Shown here piece after piece: positions 200 through 32,840 of a DNA stretch of 33,040 nucleotides (its first letter is position 1; each line of letters opens with the position of its first letter). The stretch lies in NCBI GenBank assembly GCA_910592345.1, contig CAJVPI010000366.1:1-33040 (forward strand), in the 5' to 3' direction. The position numbers were made by a program, and so were the translations under genes. The stretch is from Paraglomus brasilianum. Its lineage: Eukaryota. Below the pieces are notes generated by a model that saw nothing but the letters and a program-made list of their open reading frames with translations, did not search any database and had not been told where the DNA came from.

Positions 200-2467
200 T
201 CACAGAAGCTTAACTCTAGAAAGTCCATCTGGATTAAGAAGTTCATGAAGAAATGCCATAACTGGTTGGCGAGCAGAGAATAAAACCCTTTTGTTGGTGT
301 GTCTCTCAGAGCAAATGAGGCAGCGCCAAGCTCCCAAAAGCAACAACTTCACTGCCAACTCCCCTTGATCACCTGCATTGAGAATGCCCCCAGATTTGTA
401 CACTGCTTCTAATTCCTTTAGCACCACAATTTCCACACCTTTTTCTGATAACAGTTCCATTGAGGCTTCAGGCAGTAAAGGCTCTGATGGGTAAGTAATA
501 AGGTGCCGCTCACATTCATCATCAACAGCTACCAGTGTAGCCATATGTGATTTTACAAGTTCAGGTGCAACACTTGATGTTGGAGAAACATAAAGTGCAG
601 CTGTGCAAGCAAGCAAAGCAAGGGCAACTCTTTGTCTGATAGTATCTTCCTGGATTTCACTCCACTTAAGTACTCCCCCAGTAAGCTTGGATTTTGCAAG
701 ATGTAATATTTCATCAAATCTGCCTTGGTCAGTTTCAGCAGTTTGACCTGACCATTGAGAGCCCCAGAGTGGCCTACCAAACCGAACAATATCATAAGCT
801 GGATTGATTTTTTCCAGATGGGGGATAGAATTACTACATTCAAAAATACTCAATAAGTCATGATCATATGGCAATAATAAGTAATGAATCATAATATGTT
901 ATCCAATTAGCATACTGTAAACAATCCATTGTTGCTATATTAATATAGATGAATGGTTTATGAAGATCCCGATTTGTATCTCTTGTCTGAAAACCAGTGT
1001 CTGATGAATATTTAAGAGAAAACAAAATGCATGAAGATATTAATATTACATACCGAAGGATCATGTTCTTTTGAAGGTACCAAGTTCGCAACTGATGAAT
1101 TAGTATCAGTGAAGATACCTATAGCCACATGCTTGCATTCCCATAGTGCCCGACGAATGGCTCTGAAAGCCTGATTCTTCTCTTGAGAACCAGTACCTGT
1201 AATCATCCCATAATAATAAGTCAATGATTAAAATTGAAGAATATTGAAAATAAGAACAGACCTTTACCAAGAAGAGCAGATGCCTCATCAAAGTAAAGGA
1301 TTATCTTCTCATTTACACTCCTTAAACATTTGTTATTATCACGATTTTGACTGACAGAGTTCCAAAACTCATGCTGTGTTTGCTAAGAGGGAAGTCAGTA
1401 ACCTCGAAATGACAGTTAGCAACAAACTAAATATTAATATATTTAACCAGGTTGTTCAGCAAGTTTTCTTGCCAATTTTTTCCTGACAATATGTCCTGAT
1501 CATAGACCAAATCCATGACAAGGCAATCCTTTCAGCATATGGGAAATCAGAAGACCATAGATCTTTCAACAACTCCTTACTCTGCGGAGTTGCAGGTGGG
1601 TATCCAGTTGAGCCCTCCTTGCGGAGACATATATATATAAGGGGATGTGTTTTAGCTAGCTCAAGGGCAGCTCTGGTTTTTCCATATCCTGAGGACTGTA
1701 CAATAGCCAAATAGTTGTAAAATTCATTACCACCATTGGCAACTGCATGAATTTGCTGGTCCAGCTTGGCCAAATAGTTCACATCTTGTTGAAACGGGAC
1801 TTTGAAAGCTTTATCAAGAACTGAAGAAGAGAAGAGAAAAAAAAGCAACTGTTAGTCTCTGTGTTGTTTAGGAGTAGCTATGTAGACCAAGAACAAACCC
1901 GTGCTGGCTGTCACCGGAAAGCGTGAACTGCTCGTTGCTAACAAGACAGAAACCAAAAAGTTAGTAATGGAGTAAGAATTAGTTAACTTCGCAGAAAGCA
2001 TTACATGCTATAATTCGAACTATTCTCCCTCTGTTGACCCCATGGCTACTCTACAAACCCCCGTTGCCCTCTATTAACCCATAATGTCTCTTGTCTCCTT
2101 TGAAACGGGTTAATGTATAAACTAGCTCTGCTACGATGCAGCTGTGCCCCAACTGCTTCTCTCGCAATGGCTACTCTACGAACCCCCGTTGCCCTCTGTT
2201 AACCCATAATGTCTCTTGTCTCCTTTGAAACGGGTTAATGTATAAGCTAGCTCTGCTACGACGCAGCTCTGCCCAACTAATGACACCCCAACTGCTTCTC
2301 TCGCAATAGCGTTGATAACTTTCTAACTGTCCTCCCAATAAACGTGTATTCATTGCTTGCATACCTTGTTGCTCTAGATATGCCTTAATAATATCGTCAT
2401 CTGTAGCATTTCTGTTCCCCTTTAAAACCTGACGAAAAAACCAATCAGGAACGTCATCTAGGTCCAT
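200..2467 (-). pseudogene. Crinkler-type (CR-ATPase-like) P-loop NTPase gene, intron-containing, 3'-truncated, probable pseudogene
   Basis: Walker A YLAIVQSSGYGKT (~1675-1715), LIYICLR-GSTGYPPAT, Walker B KIILYFDEA (~1283-1310), FRAIRRAL, FTDTNSSVANL, RFGRPLW, TYPSEPLL and GDQGELAVKLLLL are spread across ORFs 1456-1848, 1012-1224 and 200-892, separated by GT-AG introns. There is an in-frame stop at 1456, a 5' tandem duplication and CpG depletion. The exact N-terminal exon structure is unresolved. Confidence 0.7.
2042..2308. repeat. Tandem direct duplication of about 125-140 bp in the 5' part of the NTPase locus
   Basis: GGCTACTCTAC..CCCCCGTTGCCCTCT..CCCATAATGTCTCTTGTCTCCTTTGAAACGGGTTAATG..CCCCAACTGCTTCTCTCGCAAT occurs at ~2044-2168 and ~2169-2308. 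The copies differ by a few substitutions and one short indel. Confidence 0.9.
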
Positions 2468-4869: not shown

Positions 4870-5057
4870 GAGGCATCCTGGCCCCTGTCAAATCAATCAT
4901 AGACACAATTAGGCTGTACCCCTCCTCTTACTGTTTTTTTTAGATAGCAAATTTTCTTAACTTTCAGTTCTTATTAAACTCAAACATGTAATACTTACGA
5001 TGTGAAAAAAGCAGCTCTAGAGATCTACCTTAACTGTACTTAATAAAGGACACAAAA
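4870..5057 (+). mobile_element. 5'-truncated non-LTR retrotransposon (LINE/SINE) 3' tail with a 13-bp TSD
   Basis: TCAAAGAGCGTCT flanks the insert at 4857-4869 and 5058-5070. The 3' end CAGCTCTAGAG.TC.ACCTTA.CTGT.CTTAATAAAGGACACAAAA is shared with the copy at 32570-32627. Confidence 0.7.
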
Positions 5058-5990
5058 TCAAAGAGCGTCTTGAGTAATATCGCTCTAACACTAAAGTAAT
5101 AAGTATAAGTATGCGTTTGTCATAAACAGATATTGCTACCCAATTACCACTAAAAGAACCTTAAATTTCATACATGGTACATTCACAAGTTTATCACTAA
5201 ATTGGCCTTGGGAATTTAGCTCTTTCAATCGAGGGCTCAAATCGCTAATATAGTTAGTGATTTAATTGTTTCCAAATAACCGATTGGCTAGTTGCTCCAT
5301 AATAGATTCACTTGCGTGACTTAGTTGACTACATTCTGAACTCTCAATATTTTATCTCATGCTGATTACCATTCATTTGATCGTTTCTCAAATACTATCG
5401 AGATCTAACTAATAACCTTGAGCTAGAAGAATTGCATGCTTATTCATTTGTTAAAGAGATTTTAAGGAATCGCAAGGTACCCTGTTGGCCGTTTTTTCGA
5501 GTTGATTAAAAATTTCAATTTCTTCATTAGTCGCGCGTCCCTCTTCTTGATCAATTAGAGCTGTACCGTTTTAGAAATAATATCACATTTACACAGTTGT
5601 TCAGACGCTTGCTTCTGTAAAATAATTCTCATCTTTCATATTATGAGAATTGCTACATGACATTTCTTTGGGGAATTCTGGTCAGTTTATAGTCGTTGTA
5701 TTGAGTTTATTAACATGTGTTCACATTTATAGACATCTCTGGTGAATATAGCTTGCAAAACTGCACAAGAAACGTATCAGCCAAGTCGAAATGTGTACAA
5801 CAAACCAACCAACTTGTTATTTCAACCAACACAACACTATATTCCCAAATATTCAACTCTAAATAGAAATTTTATGTATGTTGTACAGAATAAAGTCAAT
5901 GATAGATCAATGTACAATAAACTTAAATTAATTATTGAAGCACTGGATATGAATTTTATACATGACAAGTGAAAAAAAGTTCGCGTATTA

Positions 5991-14452: not shown

Positions 14453-14566
14453 TGTTGTGTCCGAGTTCAGGACCTACCTCAGTTCAGAATGTCCAGAACT
14501 CAGTTCCAAACCCAGAATTCAGTTGTCTCGGTCCAGAACTGAGACAGGTCTCCAACTGAGATACAA
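14453..14566. mobile_element. Short MITE-like element with imperfect inverted termini (TGTTGT start), copy 1
   Basis: The left arm TGTTGTGTCCGAGTTCAGGACCTACCTCAGTTC resembles the reverse complement of the right arm GAACTGAGACAGGTCTCCAACTGAGATACAA. The core TCAGTTGTCTCGGTCCAGA.CTGAGACAGGTC is shared with 15076-15107. Confidence 0.6.
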
Positions 14567-15039: not shown

Positions 15040-15135
15040 TGTCTCGGTTCAGAACCCAGCCACTCAGTCCAGAGCTCAGTTGTCTCGGTCCAGAGCTGAG
15101 ACAGGTCCCAAACTGAGACAGGGTGAGGTACAACA
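15040..15135. mobile_element. Second, partial copy of the same MITE-like element (ends ACAACA)
   Basis: A 32-bp core matches 14519-14550 with one mismatch. The copy ends ...GAGGTACAACA, complementary to the TGTTGT start of copy 1. Confidence 0.55.
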
Positions 15136-17914: not shown

Positions 17915-18559
17915 TCAAGATGACGTTTCTTCATAGAATGAATGAGTCATTATTAATGCAGGGGTTGCAGCAAAGTGGAGCACACTAACATCCTTCCAAA
18001 AGAACTCCCGTGTACGAGACATATCTCTGTTATCGCTGGTGCTATACTCTAAAACGTAGCCCAACGGGGAATTTATAGAGTGCTTGGTGGTTAGCCTCAA
18101 TAAATCTCTATGTTCTTTGGATGATGGTTGTACTCCGCTCGCATAGCATTTCCTGCGGATGGCCAATGCCAATTTAGATTTCCTATACAACCTGAAAGTT
18201 TGTTTGGCCGTCTTTATCTCAAATACTATTCTCCCTTCATCAGTCATTCCTTTCATATTCATGCTTATCGGCTTATCGTGGTAAGACACAGTCCTTGCTA
18301 TTCCACAGACGATCATTTGTATACAAGTAGGTCGTGATTCGAAATAGTTGCGAGTGATAGTGTAAGTAATTCGTTGGCAAATTAATTTCCATCTTTTATT
18401 CACTCTTCGCAGAATCCAGAGCTTATTGGGTGGGTTTATGTAAGAGAGAATAGCAAAGAGAAGTTCGTTAGGAAAATGATCGAGAGAGTAGGGTGTATGG
18501 GAAGGGGTTTCGAGGGTGACTGTTTGGAACCTTGTAGCTAACGAGTGAATGCATTCCAT
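17915..18559 (-). CDS. F-box domain protein, single exon, about 214 aa
   Basis: First ATG at 18559 (MECIHSL). F-box motif LDHFPNELLFAILSYINPPNKLWILRRVNKRWKLIC. Open frame to the stop at 17915. Confidence 0.75.
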   Translation of the reverse strand: MECIHSLATRFQTVTLETPSHTPYSLDHFPNELLFAILSYINPPNKLWILRRVNKRWKLICQRITYTITRNYFESRPTCIQMIVCGIARTVSYHDKPISMNMKGMTDEGRIVFEIKTAKQTFRLYRKSKLALAIRRKCYASGVQPSSKEHRDLLRLTTKHSINSPLGYVLEYSTSDNRDMSRTREFFWKDVSVLHFAATPALIMTHSFYEETSS

Positions 18560-18870
18560 AATTGTTTGGGGGGGGAGGTAAAGAGAAAGAGCAACCGACT
18601 GTTCCATCAATTCACATTTTTGTAGCACTGCATGCCGAGTCAATTGGAAAATCCAAAATTAGAATGCATGATATAACGATAATATCTAATAGAAATTCTA
18701 TTGTTCTTTTAATAATACAGGTACTCTTATTCGAAGTCTCAAGGGTCAATACTATAAGTTCTTTTTGTATGCATTTATTAAGCAATACATAAAAAATAAT
18801 AAAAGCTATTTATGGAAATGTTTACGAAAGATCTGCTCATTTAATGTCACATGCTGATCAGCACCCAATA

Positions 18871-19020
18871 CAGTGGACTCTTCCCCAAGTGCAGCTTCTC
18901 TAAGTGCAAGCATTATATTTTCCCTCCCTAAATGGAGCTTATAAGACCATTAGGTATTTCACTCTCTATAAATGCAGGTTTTATATAAATCTAGGTCGTG
19001 TCTGATTTGGCCATATGGTC
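18871..19020 (+). mobile_element. Tc1/mariner-pogo-type MITE, copy 1 (left TIR intact)
   Basis: TA|CAGTGGACTCTTCCCCAAGTGC. The internal TTTCCCTCCCTAAA..TGGAGCTTATAAGACCATTA.GTATTTCACTCTCTATAAATG..GGTCGTGTCTGATTTGGCCATATGGTC is shared with 25940-26050. Confidence 0.75.
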
Positions 19021-19642
19021 TCGTGCGTGTGCGCTTAGTATTAGGGTATATGCCTAGCGGTTTTTCGAAGCTAGACCGATGTTACGTTTGTGTCAAAACA
19101 AAGGCGATATCATGTACCACAAGGATCTTATAGGGATTTCCAAAATAGTAAAAATTCTACCGGGTAACACTCCCGATATATAAGCATGGCCTAAAAAATG
19201 TCACGATAGATCCCCACTGAAGATAATCAGAGATCTTCTTGATAAGAAACAGCTTTTAATTGGTTTAGGAGAAGTTAATATTAATGTTAATAGTCGATCG
19301 TAACCAATATTTGAACTATAGATATCAACTGATAAATGCTCATTTGACATCAATTCTTTCAGAACTAATAATCTATTGTAGTTGGTGCTCGTTTAATTGG
19401 ATTAAACCCGGTAAAGAACTTAATAGTCGTGCTATCTACATATCAATTATTAGTTTGACAGCGACTATATTACTAATGGTAACTAAATTGTCACGCTCCT
19501 AATAAAATATACAAAATGACATTTTCTTGGCCAACTCTATGAGTCCAACTGTAATGATACAAACTTTACCCATGGTCAAGAAACGAACATCACAAAACCA
19601 GCATTAATTTGAATTAAGTAGGATACCATGGGTGAACACATA

Positions 19643-20687: not shown

Positions 20688-20813
20688 TGTTCTGACCCAA
20701 ATCGCAATCCGACCCAATTCGAAATATTCCGATAACATCACGTAAAAAATTGGTGTGATATTTAGATAATGTGCCTATTTCGAATTGGGTCAAATTGCGA
20801 TTAGGTCAGAACA
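20688..20813. mobile_element. 126-bp MITE with about 38-bp TIRs and TGT...ACA ends
   Basis: Left arm TGTTCTGACCCAAATCGCAATCCGACCCAATTCGAAATA versus reverse complement of the right arm TGTTCTGACCTAATCGCAATTTGACCCAATTCGAAATA. Flanks ATAA / AGAA could be a 4-bp TSD with one mismatch. Confidence 0.8.
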
Positions 20814-25932: not shown

Positions 25933-26072
25933 CACTATAATTTCCCTCCCTAAATTAAAATGGAGCTTATAAGACCATTAAGTATTTCACTCTCTATAAA
26001 TGTCAGATTCTTTATTAATGCAGGTCGTGTCTGATTTGGCCATATGGTCCCGCACTTAGGGAGAGTCCACTG
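25933..26072 (+). mobile_element. Same MITE family as 18871, copy 2 (right TIR intact), in the PFS2 promoter
   Basis: Ends GCACTTAGGGAGAGTCCACTG|TA, a near-exact reverse complement of the copy-1 left TIR. Internal sequence is shared with 18918-19020. Confidence 0.75.
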
Positions 26073-28064
26073 TACAAGGCGAAAAGCACTCATTGGCACC
26101 CTTGTTTATAGTCCCTACGGTTATACTCACTATCTGCCTATTTTTATAGTCTCGTTGCATTTACAAAGTCTCGAATCACGTACCTATTTAATTTTGTGAT
26201 TATCTTCAAAGAAATTATAATAATAATTCATACCAAAATGCCAAAACTGATATTCGTAAGCGAAAGGCGATTTCTTTAGAAACGAAAAGCAGTATGTCTA
26301 TACAAATGTGATGTTTGGCCTAAACGTCAACTGTGATGCTTCTAGCAATGCTAGACAAGAATCGTTTGATAATGTAGATACTTTGCCCCAAGTTTGCCAA
26401 ATTACCTAAAGATTGTTCTCTCCAACTGCTCATCAGCAGCAAAAAGCGGGTGTTGTAACAGCATGTAATCCCAAAAATCTCAATACACCACATTCTATTA
26501 CACAAATAAAGTTGACGTCGAAAAACCAACGGCTGAACAAATAAGCAACAACATTCGAACCGATGATAAAATTAATGAATTCGACATAATTGTGAATGCC
26601 GTGAATAAATGGCAAGACGAGATTACTGGGGGGAAAAAAATGCTAAAATCGAGAATCTGGTAAGACTGCTTATATTGTCGCTATTTAATAATGGTGTCGC
26701 TTGAGAAAAGTTGCGGATTACGATTGATATGATTTTGGATTCCATGCAATTCTACAATCAACGCTCAACCAACTTACCAGCATACTTAGTGGCAGAGATC
26801 AAACTCCCTCAATATTCAGCGAACGCATTAAATTTTTGAAATACTTGTTAGACGGCAACAGTCTAATTATGAGTGTACTCGCGAACAAATCGATCATATA
26901 AAATCAAAGTATTCATTATTTCGACACACTCTTTCTCAGACAGTCAAGGATTTAGACGTGAGAAGAAAAGAGTTGACAAAGACTTGCAACAGTTGAAATG
27001 CAGTACGAGCCAATTTCCTAGCGTGTTATGATAATCTAAACAACAGACGCGTATTTATAATTTATTCACTTTTACTGATTAGAATTCGACGTCCTTAACA
27101 TGACACGCGAACCACTGACAAAATAAAAAGCGTTTTGACTACCCATAATTATTGACATAACGGACCAAAATAAGAAATTACTAGATGAAAGTTAATGATG
27201 CTTTGAGTGATTGAATGCTATCTTCAAAAGTTGAGGAAGAGAAAAAACAGAGTATTATTATCGTGGGATAAATTCGATAATCTCCCGTATATGAAATATA
27301 GTAAACGCGTTTCTAAAATAACGGTTAAATATCTTAACTTGCCACTCAGATAATTGCGGGACAAGAAGGCAATTACCCTTCGTTGATATACGGATTTAAC
27401 GGTTTCTCAATTATATCAACTAATTTAGAGTAAATGCGATATTTGTTTATTAACAATAATATATGAATAAAAGGAATATTAGGAATCAAATTCACACTGC
27501 GCCGCTTACATACTTTTCGATCGGACTAATTGAGCTATTTTTAGCATCTATTTCTAACATTCTATCGATTGTTTTCAGTATACATTTTCGACTTTTGCAG
27601 TGCTGCTATACAGCACTGTCGATTACACATATATTATCAATTTCGTACTCCGAAATGTTTGTACCCTAATACAGCTGCGCTCGCTGGTGTTATTGCCGAT
27701 CGGAATGATTGCTGCGGCATCGTCGGAGGAATACGTCACTGATTTGCAATTGCATGAGCTAAAGTAAAGGTGTTTCAGGACAATTTCAGAGTCAGATAAT
27801 GGGGAAGAGGAGTTGGTGATTATGATGCCTGTGTATGTGGGTCATGCATTCTTAACACAGATCCCTTGCAAATTAAAATTGGAAAATTGATCAACCTGAC
27901 ATGCACCTCCCTTCTGTGCTTCTGAGAAATGTTCTGCCTGTTTGTACCATCTGGTACCAGCAGCAAAGCTTGAGCAATTTGCATGCTGGGTATCTGCCAA
28001 GTCAGAAAATGCAGCCAGCTCTCATTGTGAATCAAGTAGAGTTTGGACAGCACAGGAGCAGCAG

Positions 28065-28140
28065 GCTCTAGAATCAAATTCTTCTCTGACTTCTTTGGAT
28101 TTGAATGGTAACAATATTGGAGGCACAGGAGCAGCAGCTT
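28065..28140 (+). pseudogene. Isolated ribonuclease-inhibitor-type LRR fragment (NLRC3-like repeat)
   Basis: Translation ALESNSSLTSLDLNGNNIGGTGAAA fits the RI-like LRR consensus. It is a single repeat in a CpG-free tract with stops nearby. Confidence 0.55.
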
Positions 28141-28723: not shown

Positions 28724-29163
28724 GGAAAAGTCGGTGCACGCAAAATTTTAATGGTGAATTCAATAATGGTGAATTCAACCATGTTTATAAAAAATATATT
28801 TGTTTTTTAAAAATAATAAATGTTTGCTTTAAAACAAAGCCGTTTTATTAAAAGACTTTTTCTTCTCGACTGAGAAAAATGTGTGATGCCCGCCGCGGGT
28901 GATTTGTCTGGAAACACGTGATATAATTGATCGAGCTATCAACAGCGTTTATTGTTGAGAATCTTCTATACTGTTCTATAACATTGTAATCGATTGTCTG
29001 CAGATATTGATGTCATAAATATATATAATCTAATTTAAAGGTTTATCGAGACAATTCGCTGCAAGTTGTGGGACACGAAGCGGAATAATTTTTCGCATCA
29101 TGCTATGACGAAACTTTTACGAACAATGTTATCTGTATGCCAAATCACATCTTGTGTTGATTA

Positions 29164-30061
29164 CAGTCAACCCTCCATATAAGCACACCCTCCATATAAG
29201 CATACCCTCCATATAAGCACACCCTCCACATAAGCACACCATGCCTTATTCCCGAGATTGGGAATTAGCATTTGCACGGTTTTTTCGTTTCCTCGGATAT
29301 GCACGCCCGTGATTTTCATGTGATTTGCACAACATACCAGGTTACATAAAGGTTTGAAATGGTCAAAATAATGATGATCAGTCCATACAAAGAAGCGCCT
29401 TATAGTAATAGATATTATAATATTATTAACGGATTTCTTTATGAAGCATGATTGTAGACGTTATTCTACCCTTTCGCCTTTATGTAGGAATAAGGAACTG
29501 TTCGTGACAGAGAAACAGAAATAAATAGAAAAATTATTTAATGTCTTTGTTAATAGTAGAAGTTAATCTTTATCGTCATTAAAATAGATATTGAATTAAC
29601 GAAATCGTTATATCGACTTTGTAATAGCGCGTTATCGTTTAATAGCGCACGGCATCAATGTGAATAAAGAATAACTGAATTTTATTTAAAATGTAAAACT
29701 CCCTTGTTTAATGGTCAACGTTGACAATAGTGATGTTGATGATAGCATTGAGCTACTGATTGTAAACTGCAGCGATGCTGCAAGCAGCTTGGAGGTTATT
29801 CGCTCCTTTCTGCAACAGCAAGAAGATTCTAAAGACCTGTTGAAACATATTAATGTACTAGATCGTTACATTAGTTTAAAATCAATGAATGTAATGAAAC
29901 AAATGACAATAGACAAGTTTTTCAATAATAGCTAATAAATATCTGTTAATGAATTACGTGCAACCAATCAAATTCTAAACCTCTATTCAAGCATCCTAAT
30001 CCCTCTATTCAAACATGCTCTGCCCCATTCCCGAGGGCGTGCTTATATGGAGGGTTGACTG
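29164..30061 (+). mobile_element. 898-bp non-autonomous pogo/Tigger-type (Tc1/mariner superfamily) DNA transposon
   Basis: TA TSD at 29162-29163 and 30062-30063. Perfect 23-bp TIR CAGTCAACCCTCCATATAAGCAC. Four tandem 17-bp units at 29170-29237. Internal ORF 29711-29935 resembles a transposase C-terminus ending KQMTIDKFF. Confidence 0.9.
29711..29935 (+). pseudogene. C-terminal remnant of a pogo-like transposase
   Basis: DDSIEL..SDAASSLEVIRSFLQQQ...MKQMTIDKFFNNS*. The Qxx(I/L)xxFF PIP-box-like tail is typical of pogo/Tigger transposases. No DDE domain is present. Confidence 0.6.
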
Positions 30062-30077
30062 TATCTAGCGAAATACA

Positions 30078-30305
30078 CAGTGGCTCTCGATATAATGACC
30101 CCTCGACAATATGATATTGGCTAATATGATGCTTTTCCCCCGGCTCAGCCCAGTTATAATAAAATTGGACTCGATATACTTATAATCTTGCGATATAACG
30201 TTATAATGATGTTGTTGTGCTTATATAAATAAATGATCTCGATATAACGAAGTTCGTAAATCATCACCATAATTGGTAAGCATTTTATCGAGCAGAACAT
30301 CATAT
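30078..30305 (+). mobile_element. Left end of a second pogo-like element, interrupted at about 30305
   Basis: CAGTGGCTCTCGATATAATGAC start with repeated CTCGATATA/CGATATAACG subterminal motifs (~30086, ~30170, ~30190, ~30238). No right end in the window. Confidence 0.45.
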
Positions 30306-30520
30306 GGGGCATGCTGCAACAAAACCAGACAAAGCAAACATTTGATTATGTGACATAATGAGAGGCTGATTATGATGTGGCTGTAAAATTGACCAGTGCG
30401 ACTGATGACATTTTGAAAAGTAATAATGGTACTCATTCATAACTTATGGATTTGTTAAGTTGAATGATGAATATAAACCATAACAGGATTAATATAGGAT
30501 TATCTCTATATAAAAAATAT
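30306..30520 (+). mobile_element. Terminal segment of an unclassified repeat or DNA transposon, copy 1
   Basis: AT|GGGGCATGCTGCAACAAAACCAGACAAAG ... GAATATAAACCATAACAGGA.TAATATAGG.TTATCTCTATATA is shared with 32842-33040. The sequence upstream of each copy is unrelated. Confidence 0.7.
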
Positions 30521-30694
30521 TAATATAAAATTAATTTACATTAAATCCACCATGGAACCAAAGAATTACAGCATCATTAGAAGTATTTTAAAAAAGAACA
30601 AGGTGAAAAAATTGCGCCTTACGTTTTAAAATCAATGATACCAAAATTCTTGAGATAAAAAAAAGATCATTAATTAAATTTACCAATATTTAAA

Positions 30695-31216
30695 TTACTT
30701 CCTTAACTTTGATCAAGGTCATCTCTTATTTTCTTTAACCTCAATTTGAGCAATGTGTTGGATTTGTTGTTTTCTTAAAAATTCAACCTCACTTTCAAGT
30801 CTTTGAATTTTATCTAACAATTCTTGCCTTTGCTTATCATGCCAGTCCTTTGAAACATCCAAGGCATCCTAATTTCTTCCTTGGCACTGTCTAATTGCTG
30901 TTTTAAATCCTTGTTTTGCTGCTCCAATCTACCAACATAACTTTGCCCCATTATCTTAGCTGCTGAAAGGGTTTTAACTAGTTTATTTTTTCTTAAATTA
31001 CAAAAGCAATTTACCCTGTTTCTCATAGCTCACAATCATTACAATGTGGCAAGGTGCCATTATCAATATCTCCTTTACATTCAACACAAATATAGGCATA
31101 TCATTATAGCCACTAGTTTTGGTATTGTAGGCTACCATTTCATGAGTGGTTGAGTTTTTATTACAGTGCCAGCTGTCTCCTCTTCCCAACTGACTGATCT
31201 GATATTCTAATTTCAT
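30695..31216 (-). pseudogene. Decayed Mollicute (MRE)-type gene 2: Cys-rich N-terminus plus coiled coil, genetic code 4
   Basis: ATG at 31216, 1 nt after the upstream TAA. Frameshifted translation MKLEYQISQLGRGDSWHCNK...ICVECKGDIDNGTLPHCNDCELW(TGA)...YVGRLEQQNKDLKQQL...LESEVEFLRKQQIQHIAQIEVKENKRW(TGA)PW(TGA)SKLRK*. No introns. Confidence 0.7.
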
Positions 31217-31217
31217 G

Positions 31218-32005
31218 TTACTTGCTCTTTTGTAAGATATAAGCATTAAATTTCTCCTTAACTATTTCCCTAGTTTGGTTCACTTTACTTTTTATTTTAC
31301 TACCCAACAGTTTAAACTTATTAGTTTTTTTTTTGTAAAACTGGTAATTCTTGAAGTTGTTTACATGCCACATAGTTTTGTCATGCCATAAAATTTTTAG
31401 TAATTTTATCCTTGCAGAAGCTTTGTCCAAATCATCTTCTTTGCTTTGATAGTCTCTGTAAACAAACTAACTTTGGGTTCTCATCTTTTTAATCTACTTA
31501 CTTCTAAGGCCTTTTCAGCTTCTTCTCGCTCCATTTCCACTTCATCTTCTAATTCTTCTACTCTGAATTAATTCCTTTTGCTTAGTTTCTAACTCTTTTT
31601 GCTTGGTTTCTAATTCTACAACCTTTGGTTCTAACTCAGCATTCCTTTCTTCAAGTTCTTTACACTTTGGAGAAAGAAAATTAAAACCATACTCATAATT
31701 TCATGCTTCATCAGCAAGACTTTTAATAATATTTTCAGGAGTAAATTCATCACTGAAAACAGCTTTTCTTTCCCATTCTCTTCCTGATAACTTACTCAGC
31801 CTTTTTCAGGTCAAATAAAATTTTCTAAGGTTCTTAAACTTTCGTATTTATATTCTCCACTTTGCTTAAGACTTTGAACAGTATTCCAAATTCTTAGTTT
31901 GAAGTTTTCTTCTTTATAGGCTAATTCCTTCTTTAACTTTACGTTTTCTTCTAATACTAATAGGTTTTTATTTCTTTGCTCGAGTTCGTTTATGATGTTT
32001 ACTAT
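31218..32005 (-). pseudogene. Decayed Mollicute (MRE)-type gene 1: coiled-coil protein, genetic code 4
   Basis: (ATA)VNIINELEQRNKNLL...LENFIW(TGA)PEKGW(TGA)VSYQ...KSLADEAW(TGA)NYEYGFNFLSPKCKELEERNAELE...RVEELEDEVEMEREEAEKALE...KTNKFKLLGSKIKSKVNQTREIVKEKFNAYILQKSK*. Several frameshifts, no introns. Confidence 0.7.
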
Positions 32006-32029
32006 TACTTTTTTTTTTATTTTTTATTT

Positions 32030-32370
32030 GCACTCCGCATGCTTCGAAAACTACGATTTACACCTAGTGGCAGCGTCCCTTCGGATACACACTACTAAGC
32101 ACCCTCACGAAAAACAATTACAAGTGTGGCCACGGAGAGCTTTCAAGATTTGTTTTTAATTTAGTGACTCGAATTTTTTTTGTAACTTACAGTTTATTTA
32201 CGGGCCTTTAAGAGCAATTATCTATCTAGGATTTAGTGTCACGATCCGGTAAACGGAAGTGCCGTCAGTGTAAAAGCCTAAACGAAAGGTCACCTAACTG
32301 TCAGTCTGGTTAAACTCTTAGTAGGAGGCGCTATGCTCCGTGCGAAGAAAGTTAAATTCTTACGAGTCAC
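32030..32370 (-). ncRNA. Candidate structured RNA or 5' leader (two domains), family not recognised
   Basis: Domain A is closed by GTGACTCG/CGAGTCAC (32164-32171/32363-32370) with nested helices. Domain B is closed by minus-strand CUCCGUG/UGCGGAG (32131-32137/32033-32039) with a hairpin at 32063-32099. Non-Watson-Crick pairs are G-U on the minus strand. Confidence 0.45.
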
Positions 32371-32433
32371 GTGTCATTTCGCTCTCCCGTGACATTTGCC
32401 TCGACAAATGCATCATACAGTAACGTAATAATC

Positions 32434-32840
32434 TAAGCGTTGGTGTCCCTATTGCAGTGCGTGAAAATTTATGTCGTGAAATTATATCAAAATATCTTGG
32501 ATCGCCATCTAAGATACGCCGACCTGATTTTCTTAAAATATCAGAGCATTCAAAAGGATTAGAATTGATGTGATAAAAACAGCTCTAGAGGTCCACCTTA
32601 GCTGTGCTTAATAAAGGACACACAAAATCAAGAGGATTAGAACTTGATATTTATTACCCGGAATACGGTTTTGCAATCCAATCGAAGTACAAGGGCAACA
32701 GCATGAGAAATATATCGAATTCTTTCATAGAGACCCAAAAAATTTCATTAACCAGCAAGAACGGGATCAACTCAAGAAAGAATTATGTGAAGAAAACTGG
32801 ATCGTTTTAAGATATGTCTGGTATTACGAAGACCCATATA
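32434..32840 (+). pseudogene. Disrupted zinc-ribbon plus Vsr/DUF559-like (restriction-endonuclease-fold) nuclease gene
   Basis: KRWCPYCS..RENLCREIISKYLGSPSKIRRPDFLK..KGLELDIYYPEYGFAIEVQGQQHEKYIEFFHRDPKNFINQQERDQLKKELCEENWIVLRYVWYYEDPY. Interrupted by a retroelement tail, a 5-bp CAATC duplication and the repeat at 32842. Confidence 0.7.
32570..32627 (+). mobile_element. 58-bp 3' tail of the same non-LTR retrotransposon as 4870-5057, with an about 20-bp TSD
   Basis: Flanked by TCAAAAGGATTAGAATTGAT (32550-32569) and TCAAGAGGATTAGAACTTGAT (32628-32648). Removing the insert and one TSD restores the KGLELD frame. Confidence 0.75.

What the first reader, a model, noticed from the sequence alone, without database searches (positions are those of the whole stretch)
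30575..32370. Endobacterial (Mollicute, code-4) DNA embedded in fungal chromosomal sequence
Seen: two intronless minus-strand frames abut like an operon (TAA-C-ATG, 31220-31214). They are repeatedly interrupted by in-frame TGA in Trp-like contexts (31811, 31796, 31701, 31481, 31023, 30719, 30713; e.g. FIW-PEKGW and KRW-PW-SKLRK), while their true ends are TAA. A short convergent + strand gene end may lie at ~30587-30658 (FKKEQGEKIAPYVLKSMIPKFLR*). Known: Mycoplasma-related endobacteria of Glomeromycotina (Ca. Moeniiplasma) read UGA as Trp. From memory, C-termini such as AQIEVK..KWPW and AYILQK are typical of their coiled-coil protein families. Inference: a bacterium-to-host transfer that has since decayed (frameshifts, ATG to ATA). 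The decay and the fungal transposons on both sides argue against simple contamination.
Basis: partly seen in the sequence, partly recalled or inferred. Interest (0 to 1): 0.88.

Follow-up and report, generated by a model that had tools for sequence, protein, structure and literature searches.

The report
Dead endobacterial gene pair in fungus
Two broken genes written in the mycoplasma genetic code are joined on one side to repeat DNA that is likely fungal, and likely record a recent leak of DNA from bacteria living inside the fungus into its chromosome, a known kind of event whose other join is still unproven here.

Summary
The code-4 reading holds. Two abutting minus-strand genes (A 32005-31218, B 31216-30695) have close metagenome relatives. 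Six of seven in-frame TGAs sit on Trp columns, there is no premature TAA/TAG, and a relative uses TGA there too. Both genes are dead: 8 frameshifts and ATG to ATA. Variant contigs in the same sample lack 5 of those frameshifts, so a donor-like allele is close by. MRE origin is inferred; no named MRE genome was hit.

Exact contigs of one run cross the right side into fungal-type repeat DNA at even depth (131-207x). The left junction, likely 30659-30675 rather than 30575, is not shown. Depth flips between two runs across the left repeat, so the link to the DRS2/PFS2 side is doubtful. No independent sample bridges a junction. Decay alone does not prove a nuclear location, since MRE genomes are pseudogene-rich.

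Best reading: a recent, dead endosymbiont-to-nucleus insertion (0.6). Rivals: chimera (0.2), host DNA inside an MRE chromosome (0.15). The scan noted five similar cases on other genomes (unchecked notes). New member of a known kind.

The parts
31218..32005 (-). Gene A, pseudogene of a code-4 coiled-coil protein (relatives 244-262 aa); start ATA; frameshifts near 31760, 31568, 31443, 31396, 31330; in-frame TGA at 31811, 31796, 31701, 31481, 31381
   Evidence: 3' half 385 identities, 11 mismatches, 18 gap columns against L002, 5' half 248/80/28
30695..31216 (-). Gene B, pseudogene of a Cys-rich (likely zinc-binding) domain plus long helix (relatives about 180-198 aa); 8 codons lost near 31160; frameshifts near 31098, 31030, 30869; TGA at 30719 and 30713
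   Evidence: model of relative P0051, pLDDT 73.8, pTM 0.40, helix 105-183
32006..32360 (.). Non-coding DNA upstream of gene A holding two segments (about 32042-32150 and 32211-32355) that have variants in other contexts; origin not determined; the right junction lies somewhere in 32023-32366
   Evidence: homology to L002 ends at 32022; variant contigs and loose ends; no Rfam match, no unusual fold
32304..32396 (.). Exact 93-nt contig of run X1 (147x) linking the upstream DNA to the fungal-type flank; neighbours 32211-32333 (170x) and 32367-32622 (166x) overlap it by 30 nt
   Evidence: table 8
30659..30694 (.). Likely left junction zone between the repeat and the 3' end of gene B
   Evidence: a variant contig of X3 matches only from 30675 rightwards (table 7); the repeat's frame ends at 30658
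30302..30658 (+).
   Evidence: paralogue R2 74.5% over 220 nt; many contigs start at 30296-30304 with other left flanks; summed depth 10^4 in all four runs of the sample
32411..32837 (+). Broken nuclease-like gene, 3 of 3 Trp codons TGG, interrupted by a 78-bp insert (32550-32627) that resembles 4999-5061 of the window
   Evidence: PHROGs homing/HNH endonuclease E 2e-7 to 1e-5; a soil contig skips the 78 bp; 88% match to 4999-5061; codons
32838..33040 (+). Repeat R2, second copy of the R family, cut by the window end

Best explanation
A 1.4-1.7 kb piece of DNA in the mycoplasma code, holding two now-broken genes and likely derived from a Mollicutes-related endobacterium, is joined on its right side to repeat DNA that is likely fungal, and is likely a recent dead insertion in the fungal nucleus. 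Shown: code 4, conserved gene pair, 8 frameshifts, near-identical alleles without 5 of them in the same sample, exact contigs across the right side in one run. Inferred: DNA released from endobacteria in the shared cytoplasm was captured at a chromosome break by end-joining, since no integrase, terminal repeats or target duplication bracket the piece. Gene A would stop at its first TGA (about codon 65 of 262) on host ribosomes. Gene B would have lost only its last 8 residues and was killed by frameshifts. The piece does nothing now. Whether it lies next to the DRS2/PFS2-like genes as assembled is about even odds.
For: TGA=Trp in the window and in relative L002 (5 TGA, 1 TGG, no TAA/TAG in its first 210 codons). 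Of 112 gene B family proteins with the C-terminal motif, 81 read through Trp, 30 end exactly before it, 1 differs. The A-B order is conserved: P0009, P0177 and P0237 run from A into B. GC of the genes is 0.31, inside the 29-33% of MRE assemblies (PMC11423566). One family member is annotated in an AM-fungal assembly on a 1,453-nt contig. Run X1 holds exact contigs 31218-32131, 32121-32240, 32211-32333, 32304-32396, 32367-32622 and 32596-32800+ at 131-207x. Run X3 holds the genes at 12-13x and 32349-32609 at 11.7x. The right flank carries a 78-bp element also found at 4999-5061 and ends in the high-copy R repeat. Variants at about 6,000x in X4 lack the indels at 31097, 31325, 31393, 31442 and 31569 (table 4). 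The assembled sequence has no N.
Against: X1-X4 are one sample and may be the source of the window, so they are not independent. Exact contigs flip in depth across R1: left flank X1 about 3x and X2 50-68x; genes X1 207-257x and X2 5x. That fits a mis-join inside R1 or uneven amplification; contig depth is a coarse measure. Neither of the 2 soil runs laid shows a listed contig across a junction (267 pieces not shown). No named MRE genome was matched; the one species-genome scan returned only a 36% coiled-coil hit in Methylophilus. No sign of host methylation decay: 0 of 11 GC-to-AT differences lie at CpG, among the 18 listed differences I examined. A soil contig (31668-31947, 2 substitutions, no gap) shares the frameshift near 31760, so some decay may predate transfer. 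The fungal identity of the right flank was not shown by a named fungal hit.
Confidence: 0.6

Rival explanations
1. Artefact: endobacterial DNA co-sequenced with the fungus was joined to fungal repeats by amplification chimeras or by the assembler.
For: Very uneven depth among four small runs of one sample, as whole-genome amplification gives (inference). Reciprocal depth flip across R1. MRE sequence was found in 19 of 389 Mucoromycota assemblies (PMC11423566). Intact-type alleles are abundant in the same sample.
Against: The right side is crossed by exact contigs at even depth in X1, and X3 has a contig starting at 32349 at the depth of its gene contigs. A gap-free assembly needs read support for a join between unrelated sequences (inference). 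Two joins would need two events. The window allele carries 8 frameshifts and differs from the abundant alleles.
Confidence: 0.2
2. Reverse direction: the right-hand block is an MRE chromosome segment that took up host DNA (the nuclease-like fragment and repeat), and it was mis-joined into the fungal contig inside R1.
For: Fungus-to-MRE transfer is the documented direction (PMC10507103, PMC10386755, PMC5982333 passages). MRE genomes are pseudogene-rich and hypermutable (PMC4916391). The verified right flank is only about 470 bp before the repeat and the window end. TGG use in the flank (3 of 3) against 3 of 10 in the genes is not significant (p 0.07).
Against: The assembly puts host-type repeat DNA on both sides. 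The flank holds a nested 78-bp element also present in intron-bearing fungal surroundings. In X1 the intact-type 3' half of gene A has depth 0 at the listed sites while the broken allele is at 207x.
Confidence: 0.15
3. Mitochondrial origin: a NUMT or mitochondrial-plasmid fragment, since fungal mitochondria also read TGA as Trp.
For: Code 4 does not tell the two apart (established knowledge).
Against: No Pfam hit to a mitochondrial family. Several divergent alleles occur in one sample, whereas AM-fungal mitochondrial genomes are described as homogeneous within isolates (PMC3787672, start of abstract). The pair is operon-like with K/E-rich coiled coils.
Confidence: 0.05

Closest known systems
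Nuclear insertions of endosymbiont or organelle DNA (Wolbachia-to-host transfers, NUMTs; recalled, no paper read)
   Same: Short donor fragment in repeat-rich host DNA, donor genetic code kept, no sign of function, decay by indels.
   Different: The donor is likely a Mollicute inside a fungus; only one junction is supported; the decay may partly predate transfer.
MRE-to-fungus transfer reported for Diversispora epigaea (Sun et al. 2019, doi 10.1111/nph.15472; not held, not read; known to me only from recall and from earlier scan notes)
   Same: Same donor group and direction, if the notes are right.
   Different: Here the evidence is the TGA=Trp signature of a dead fragment plus contig continuity, not a gene tree.
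Fungus-to-MRE gene transfer (PMC10507103 passages; Naito 2015 and Torres-Cortes 2015 as cited there, not held)
   Same: Same partners, and fungal-type DNA beside code-4 genes.
   Different: Opposite direction; those are intact host-derived genes flanked by bacterial genes.
MRE contamination of Mucoromycota assemblies (PMC11423566)
   Same: Code-4 DNA inside a fungal assembly from a sample that also holds intact-type alleles.
   Different: That study retrieved whole MRE contigs; here the piece is inside a fungal contig and one side is crossed by exact contigs.

Membership tests
MRE (Ca. Moeniiplasma-type) DNA | UGA read as Trp (table 4) | tested here: met
   table 4 is used for MRE annotation (PMC10507103 passage)
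MRE (Ca. Moeniiplasma-type) DNA | GC of about 29-33% | tested here: met
   0.31 for 30675-32022; range from PMC11423566; not discriminating in an AT-rich host
MRE (Ca. Moeniiplasma-type) DNA | Intronless, operon-like gene order conserved in relatives | tested here: met
   P0009, P0177, P0237 run from A into B
MRE (Ca. Moeniiplasma-type) DNA | Homologue in a named MRE genome | tested here: inconclusive
   none named; one member annotated in Funneliformis caledonium on a 1,453-nt contig; Atlas taxa not recorded
MRE (Ca. Moeniiplasma-type) DNA | Marker-gene phylogeny within Mycoplasmatales | not testable with these tools
   no core gene in the piece; no own genome held
Nuclear insertion of endosymbiont DNA | Right junction supported by reads or contigs | tested here: met
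   X1 exact contigs 31218-32800+ at 131-207x; one sample only; the overlap at 32121-32131 is 11 nt among the listed pieces
Nuclear insertion of endosymbiont DNA | Left junction supported | tested here: inconclusive
   not shown by the contigs laid; see Tried and rejected
Nuclear insertion of endosymbiont DNA | Depth equal to the neighbouring single-copy host DNA | tested here: inconclusive
   equal to the right flank in X1 and X3; not equal to the left flank in X1 and X2; contig depth of likely amplified material is a poor measure
Nuclear insertion of endosymbiont DNA | Present in an independent sample or in a cured host | tested here: inconclusive
   2 soil runs hold near-identical gene pieces but no listed junction contig; cured host not testable
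Transposon cargo or integrated mobile element | Terminal repeats or target duplication around the piece, or an integrase/transposase in it | tested here: not met
   no inverted repeat of 25 nt or more brackets it; R1 and R2 are only 74.5% alike; PHROGs integrase hits are weak (E 5e-4 to 2e-3) and span the helix region

The most novel reading that the evidence does not exclude
Endobacterial DNA is leaking into nuclei of this fungus now: the insertion is so recent that a donor-like allele lives in the same sample, it may be present in only some nuclei (the depth flip), and the R repeats that flank it act as the landing site or carrier.
Probability: 0.12. Interest if true: 0.72.

Novelty: new member of a known kind. 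Interest (0 to 1): 0.42.

Why it matters
Published work mostly documents fungus-to-MRE transfer. A dead MRE fragment in the nucleus would be direct evidence of traffic the other way. Here the 3' half of gene A is about 97% identical to a metagenome relative at aligned positions, and alleles without 5 of the 8 frameshifts occur in the same sample, so the event would be young and its decay measurable. The TGA=Trp signature also gives a simple screen for such pieces. The genes have no known function and are dead, and the scan already holds similar notes, so this adds an instance rather than a mechanism.

Tried and rejected
CGA-to-TGA decay of a fungal gene: rejected, relatives have W. Cover of the left junction: at 98% likeness none of the 4 runs laid (X1, X2, X5, X6) covers 30646-30736; the tool filters and simplifies contigs, so this hole is no evidence either way. 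X3 and X4 were laid only at 92%. No RNA holder listed. Of 24 runs listed, 6 were laid; the small shares of the others were not used. No own genome is held, and no Mycoplasmatales genome could be reached for a search. Phage or plasmid origin: no hit for A or B in viral contigs, for B in phage records, for A in plasmids; an upstream 19-mer is absent from viral contigs. The N-terminal piece of A found nothing in the word-indexed search but 16 hits in the full scan, 2 of them long coiled-coil proteins. Family and fold: no Pfam hit above cut-off for 8 relatives; no PDB or viral fold match at E 0.001; Atlas gave unnamed clusters. Structured RNA upstream of A: no Rfam match, z-scores -0.87 to 0.72. 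Identity of R1: no relative in viral contigs or in earlier notes; I recall similar peptides from AM-fungal repeat families, untested. The nuclease-like fragment was not tested against fungal proteins. Methylation signature: none. Literature: 8 searches listed no paper on code-4 MRE fragments in fungal nuclei; three key papers were not held, so this does not show absence from print. No supplements were read; those of PMC11423566 and of Sun et al. 2019 may bear on novelty.

Full report
Setting. The window is fungal. It holds an intron-split phospholipid-translocating ATPase gene, a WD40 gene and an F-box frame (GT donor sites seen at two exon ends). No whole genome is held. The stretch 30.5-32 kb stands out by strand skew and by GC of 0.28-0.32.

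The two genes. Read in table 4, the minus strand gives pieces of two proteins in shifting frames. The C-terminal piece of gene A found 5 relatives among 138 candidates, four of 251-262 aa. The N-terminal piece found none in the word-indexed search and 16 in the full scan, 2 of them long coiled-coil proteins. The last piece of gene B found 36 relatives among 48 candidates. A frameshift-aware alignment of 5 relatives of A and 8 of B puts A at 32005-31218 with start ATA and five frameshifts. It puts B at 31216-30695 with three frameshifts and 8 codons lost. Neither path has a premature TAA or TAG.

The code. Seven TGAs are in frame. Four in A align to W in 5 of 5 relatives, one (31701) in 1 of 5. 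The two in B align to W in 6 of 8, and the other two relatives end just before them. The metagenome contig L002 encodes a relative with 5 TGA and 1 TGG and no other stop in its first 210 codons. Among 112 gene B family proteins with the C-terminal motif, 81 read through W, 30 stop exactly before it and 1 differs, as expected when TGA=Trp genes are called with either table. Decay of CGA in a fungal gene is refuted.

The donor. No hit names an MRE genome. Sources are metagenomes, plus one member annotated in a Funneliformis caledonium assembly on a 1,453-nt contig. The one scan of species genomes gave only a 36% coiled-coil match in Methylophilus. MRE origin is therefore inferred from code 4, GC 0.31, the conserved operon-like pair and the fungal setting. 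MRE are annotated with table 4 (PMC10507103, passages) and have 29-33% GC (PMC11423566, parts 1 and 2 of 3 read). A mitochondrial source also uses code 4 but fits poorly with several divergent alleles in one sample. The proteins have no known family or fold. B is predicted as a small Cys-rich beta domain followed by one long helix.

Reads. The four best holders are small runs of one sample, kept as contigs. They may be the source of the window and are not independent. Their very uneven depth suggests amplified DNA (inference). At 92% likeness, variants at about 6,000x in X4 lack the indels at 31097, 31325, 31393, 31442 and 31569, four of these also at about 270-870x in X2 (table 4; 15 rows not shown). 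So alleles close to the intact gene are in the sample, although they differ from the window in the 5' half of A (table 5). The window's own broken allele is real DNA: X1 has it letter for letter over 914 nt.

Right junction. At 98% likeness X1 gives six exact contigs from 31218 to beyond 32800 at 207, 131, 170, 147, 166 and 175x, with overlaps of 11, 30, 30, 30 and 27 nt among the listed pieces. Homology to L002 ends at 32022, and the flank from about 32367 is shared with other loci (loose end at 32396). The junction therefore lies in 32023-32366, and X1 covers that whole span at even depth. X3 has the genes at 12-13x and 32349-32609 at 11.7x. The flank is a broken nuclease-like gene with TGG at 3 of 3 Trp codons. 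It holds a 78-bp insert that a soil contig lacks and that resembles 4999-5061 of the window, and it ends in repeat R2. Its fungal nature is likely but was not shown by a named fungal hit.

Left junction and locus. Repeat R1 begins at about 30302, as R2 does at 32838. A variant contig matches the gene B side only from 30675. The junction is thus likely at 30659-30675, and the contigs laid do not show it. Exact contigs left of R1 have about 3x in X1 and 50-68x in X2; those right of it have 207-257x in X1 and 5x in X2. A flip in two runs at a high-copy repeat fits a mis-join between two copies of the repeat, though uneven amplification could also give it. The link to the DRS2/PFS2 side is therefore not established. 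The two soil runs laid hold near-identical gene pieces (up to 280 nt with 2 differences) but no listed junction contig.

Decay. Eight frameshifts in 1.3 kb with few substitutions is heavy, but not diagnostic. MRE lack mismatch repair, and 21-30% of their non-orphan ORFs are putative pseudogenes (PMC4916391, passages). L002 is itself frameshifted. The soil contig 31668-31947 has no gap across the frameshift near 31760, so that lesion either predates transfer or the soil holds the same nuclear copy. There is no CpG-decay signal: 0 of 11 GC-to-AT differences among the 18 examined.

Mechanism. Most likely (0.6), endobacterial DNA freed in the shared cytoplasm was captured at a break in repeat-rich nuclear DNA by end-joining. 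This step is inferred from the lack of an integrase, terminal repeats or a target duplication. On host ribosomes A would stop near codon 65. B has TGG at its two internal Trp codons and would have been nearly full length until frameshifts killed it. Rivals are an amplification or assembly chimera (0.2), host DNA inside an MRE chromosome (0.15) and a mitochondrial source (0.05).

Known and new. It works like a NUMT or a Wolbachia insertion (recalled). The passages I read describe fungus-to-MRE transfer (PMC10507103, PMC10386755, PMC13315312, PMC5982333). PMC5982333 says the bacterial donors it found for Rhizophagus irregularis were not MRE. PMC10463477 warns that such sequences may be mis-assembled (passages). 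PMC7732545 passages added nothing. Sun et al. 2019 is said by earlier scan notes to report MRE-to-fungus transfer; it was not held and I did not read it. Five earlier notes of this scan describe like cases on other genomes; they are unchecked leads, and none is a look-alike of this sequence. Verdict: new member of a known kind, interest 0.42. Its merit is its apparent youth and one supported junction.

Noticed in passing
window 31228 (run X3): A variant at about 8,500x lacks one base just before the stop of gene A; database proteins P0009, P0177 and P0237 likewise run from A into B, so fused forms recur in the family.
   Followed up: partly
window 32057-32150: In runs X2 and X4 contigs go back from 32150 to 32057 (depth 2,400-3,700), so this roughly 100-bp unit is likely tandem in other copies; it is at 43-57x in soil run X6 against 4-11x for the gene pieces. 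Nature unknown.
   Followed up: partly
protein clusters of genes A and B: Every listed member lies on a short contig, the longest 4,449 nt, and relative L002 has a different upstream region. The pair may be a multi-copy or mobile module in its host.
   Followed up: no
window 32681-32839: The nuclease-like fragment has relatives in 116 of 138 candidate stretches of viral contigs; the 80 kept are 44-61% identical.
   Followed up: partly
window 29162-30063: Element with 31-nt inverted ends, 17-bp subterminal tandem repeats and a short coding remnant at 29690-29935; looks like a pogo/Tc1-type relic (label recalled).
   Followed up: no
window 28063-28140: Very high-copy short repeat (summed depth up to 347,733 in X4).
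   Followed up: no
   Followed up: partly
window 17915-18658: Single long frame with an F-box domain.
   Followed up: no
window 200-1851: Minus-strand fragments with a P-loop-like motif and no Pfam hit.
   Followed up: no
window 18911-19023 / 25933-26052; 14512-14561 / 15069-15118; 2042-2310; 20688-20813: Further direct repeats and one imperfect palindrome.
   Followed up: no
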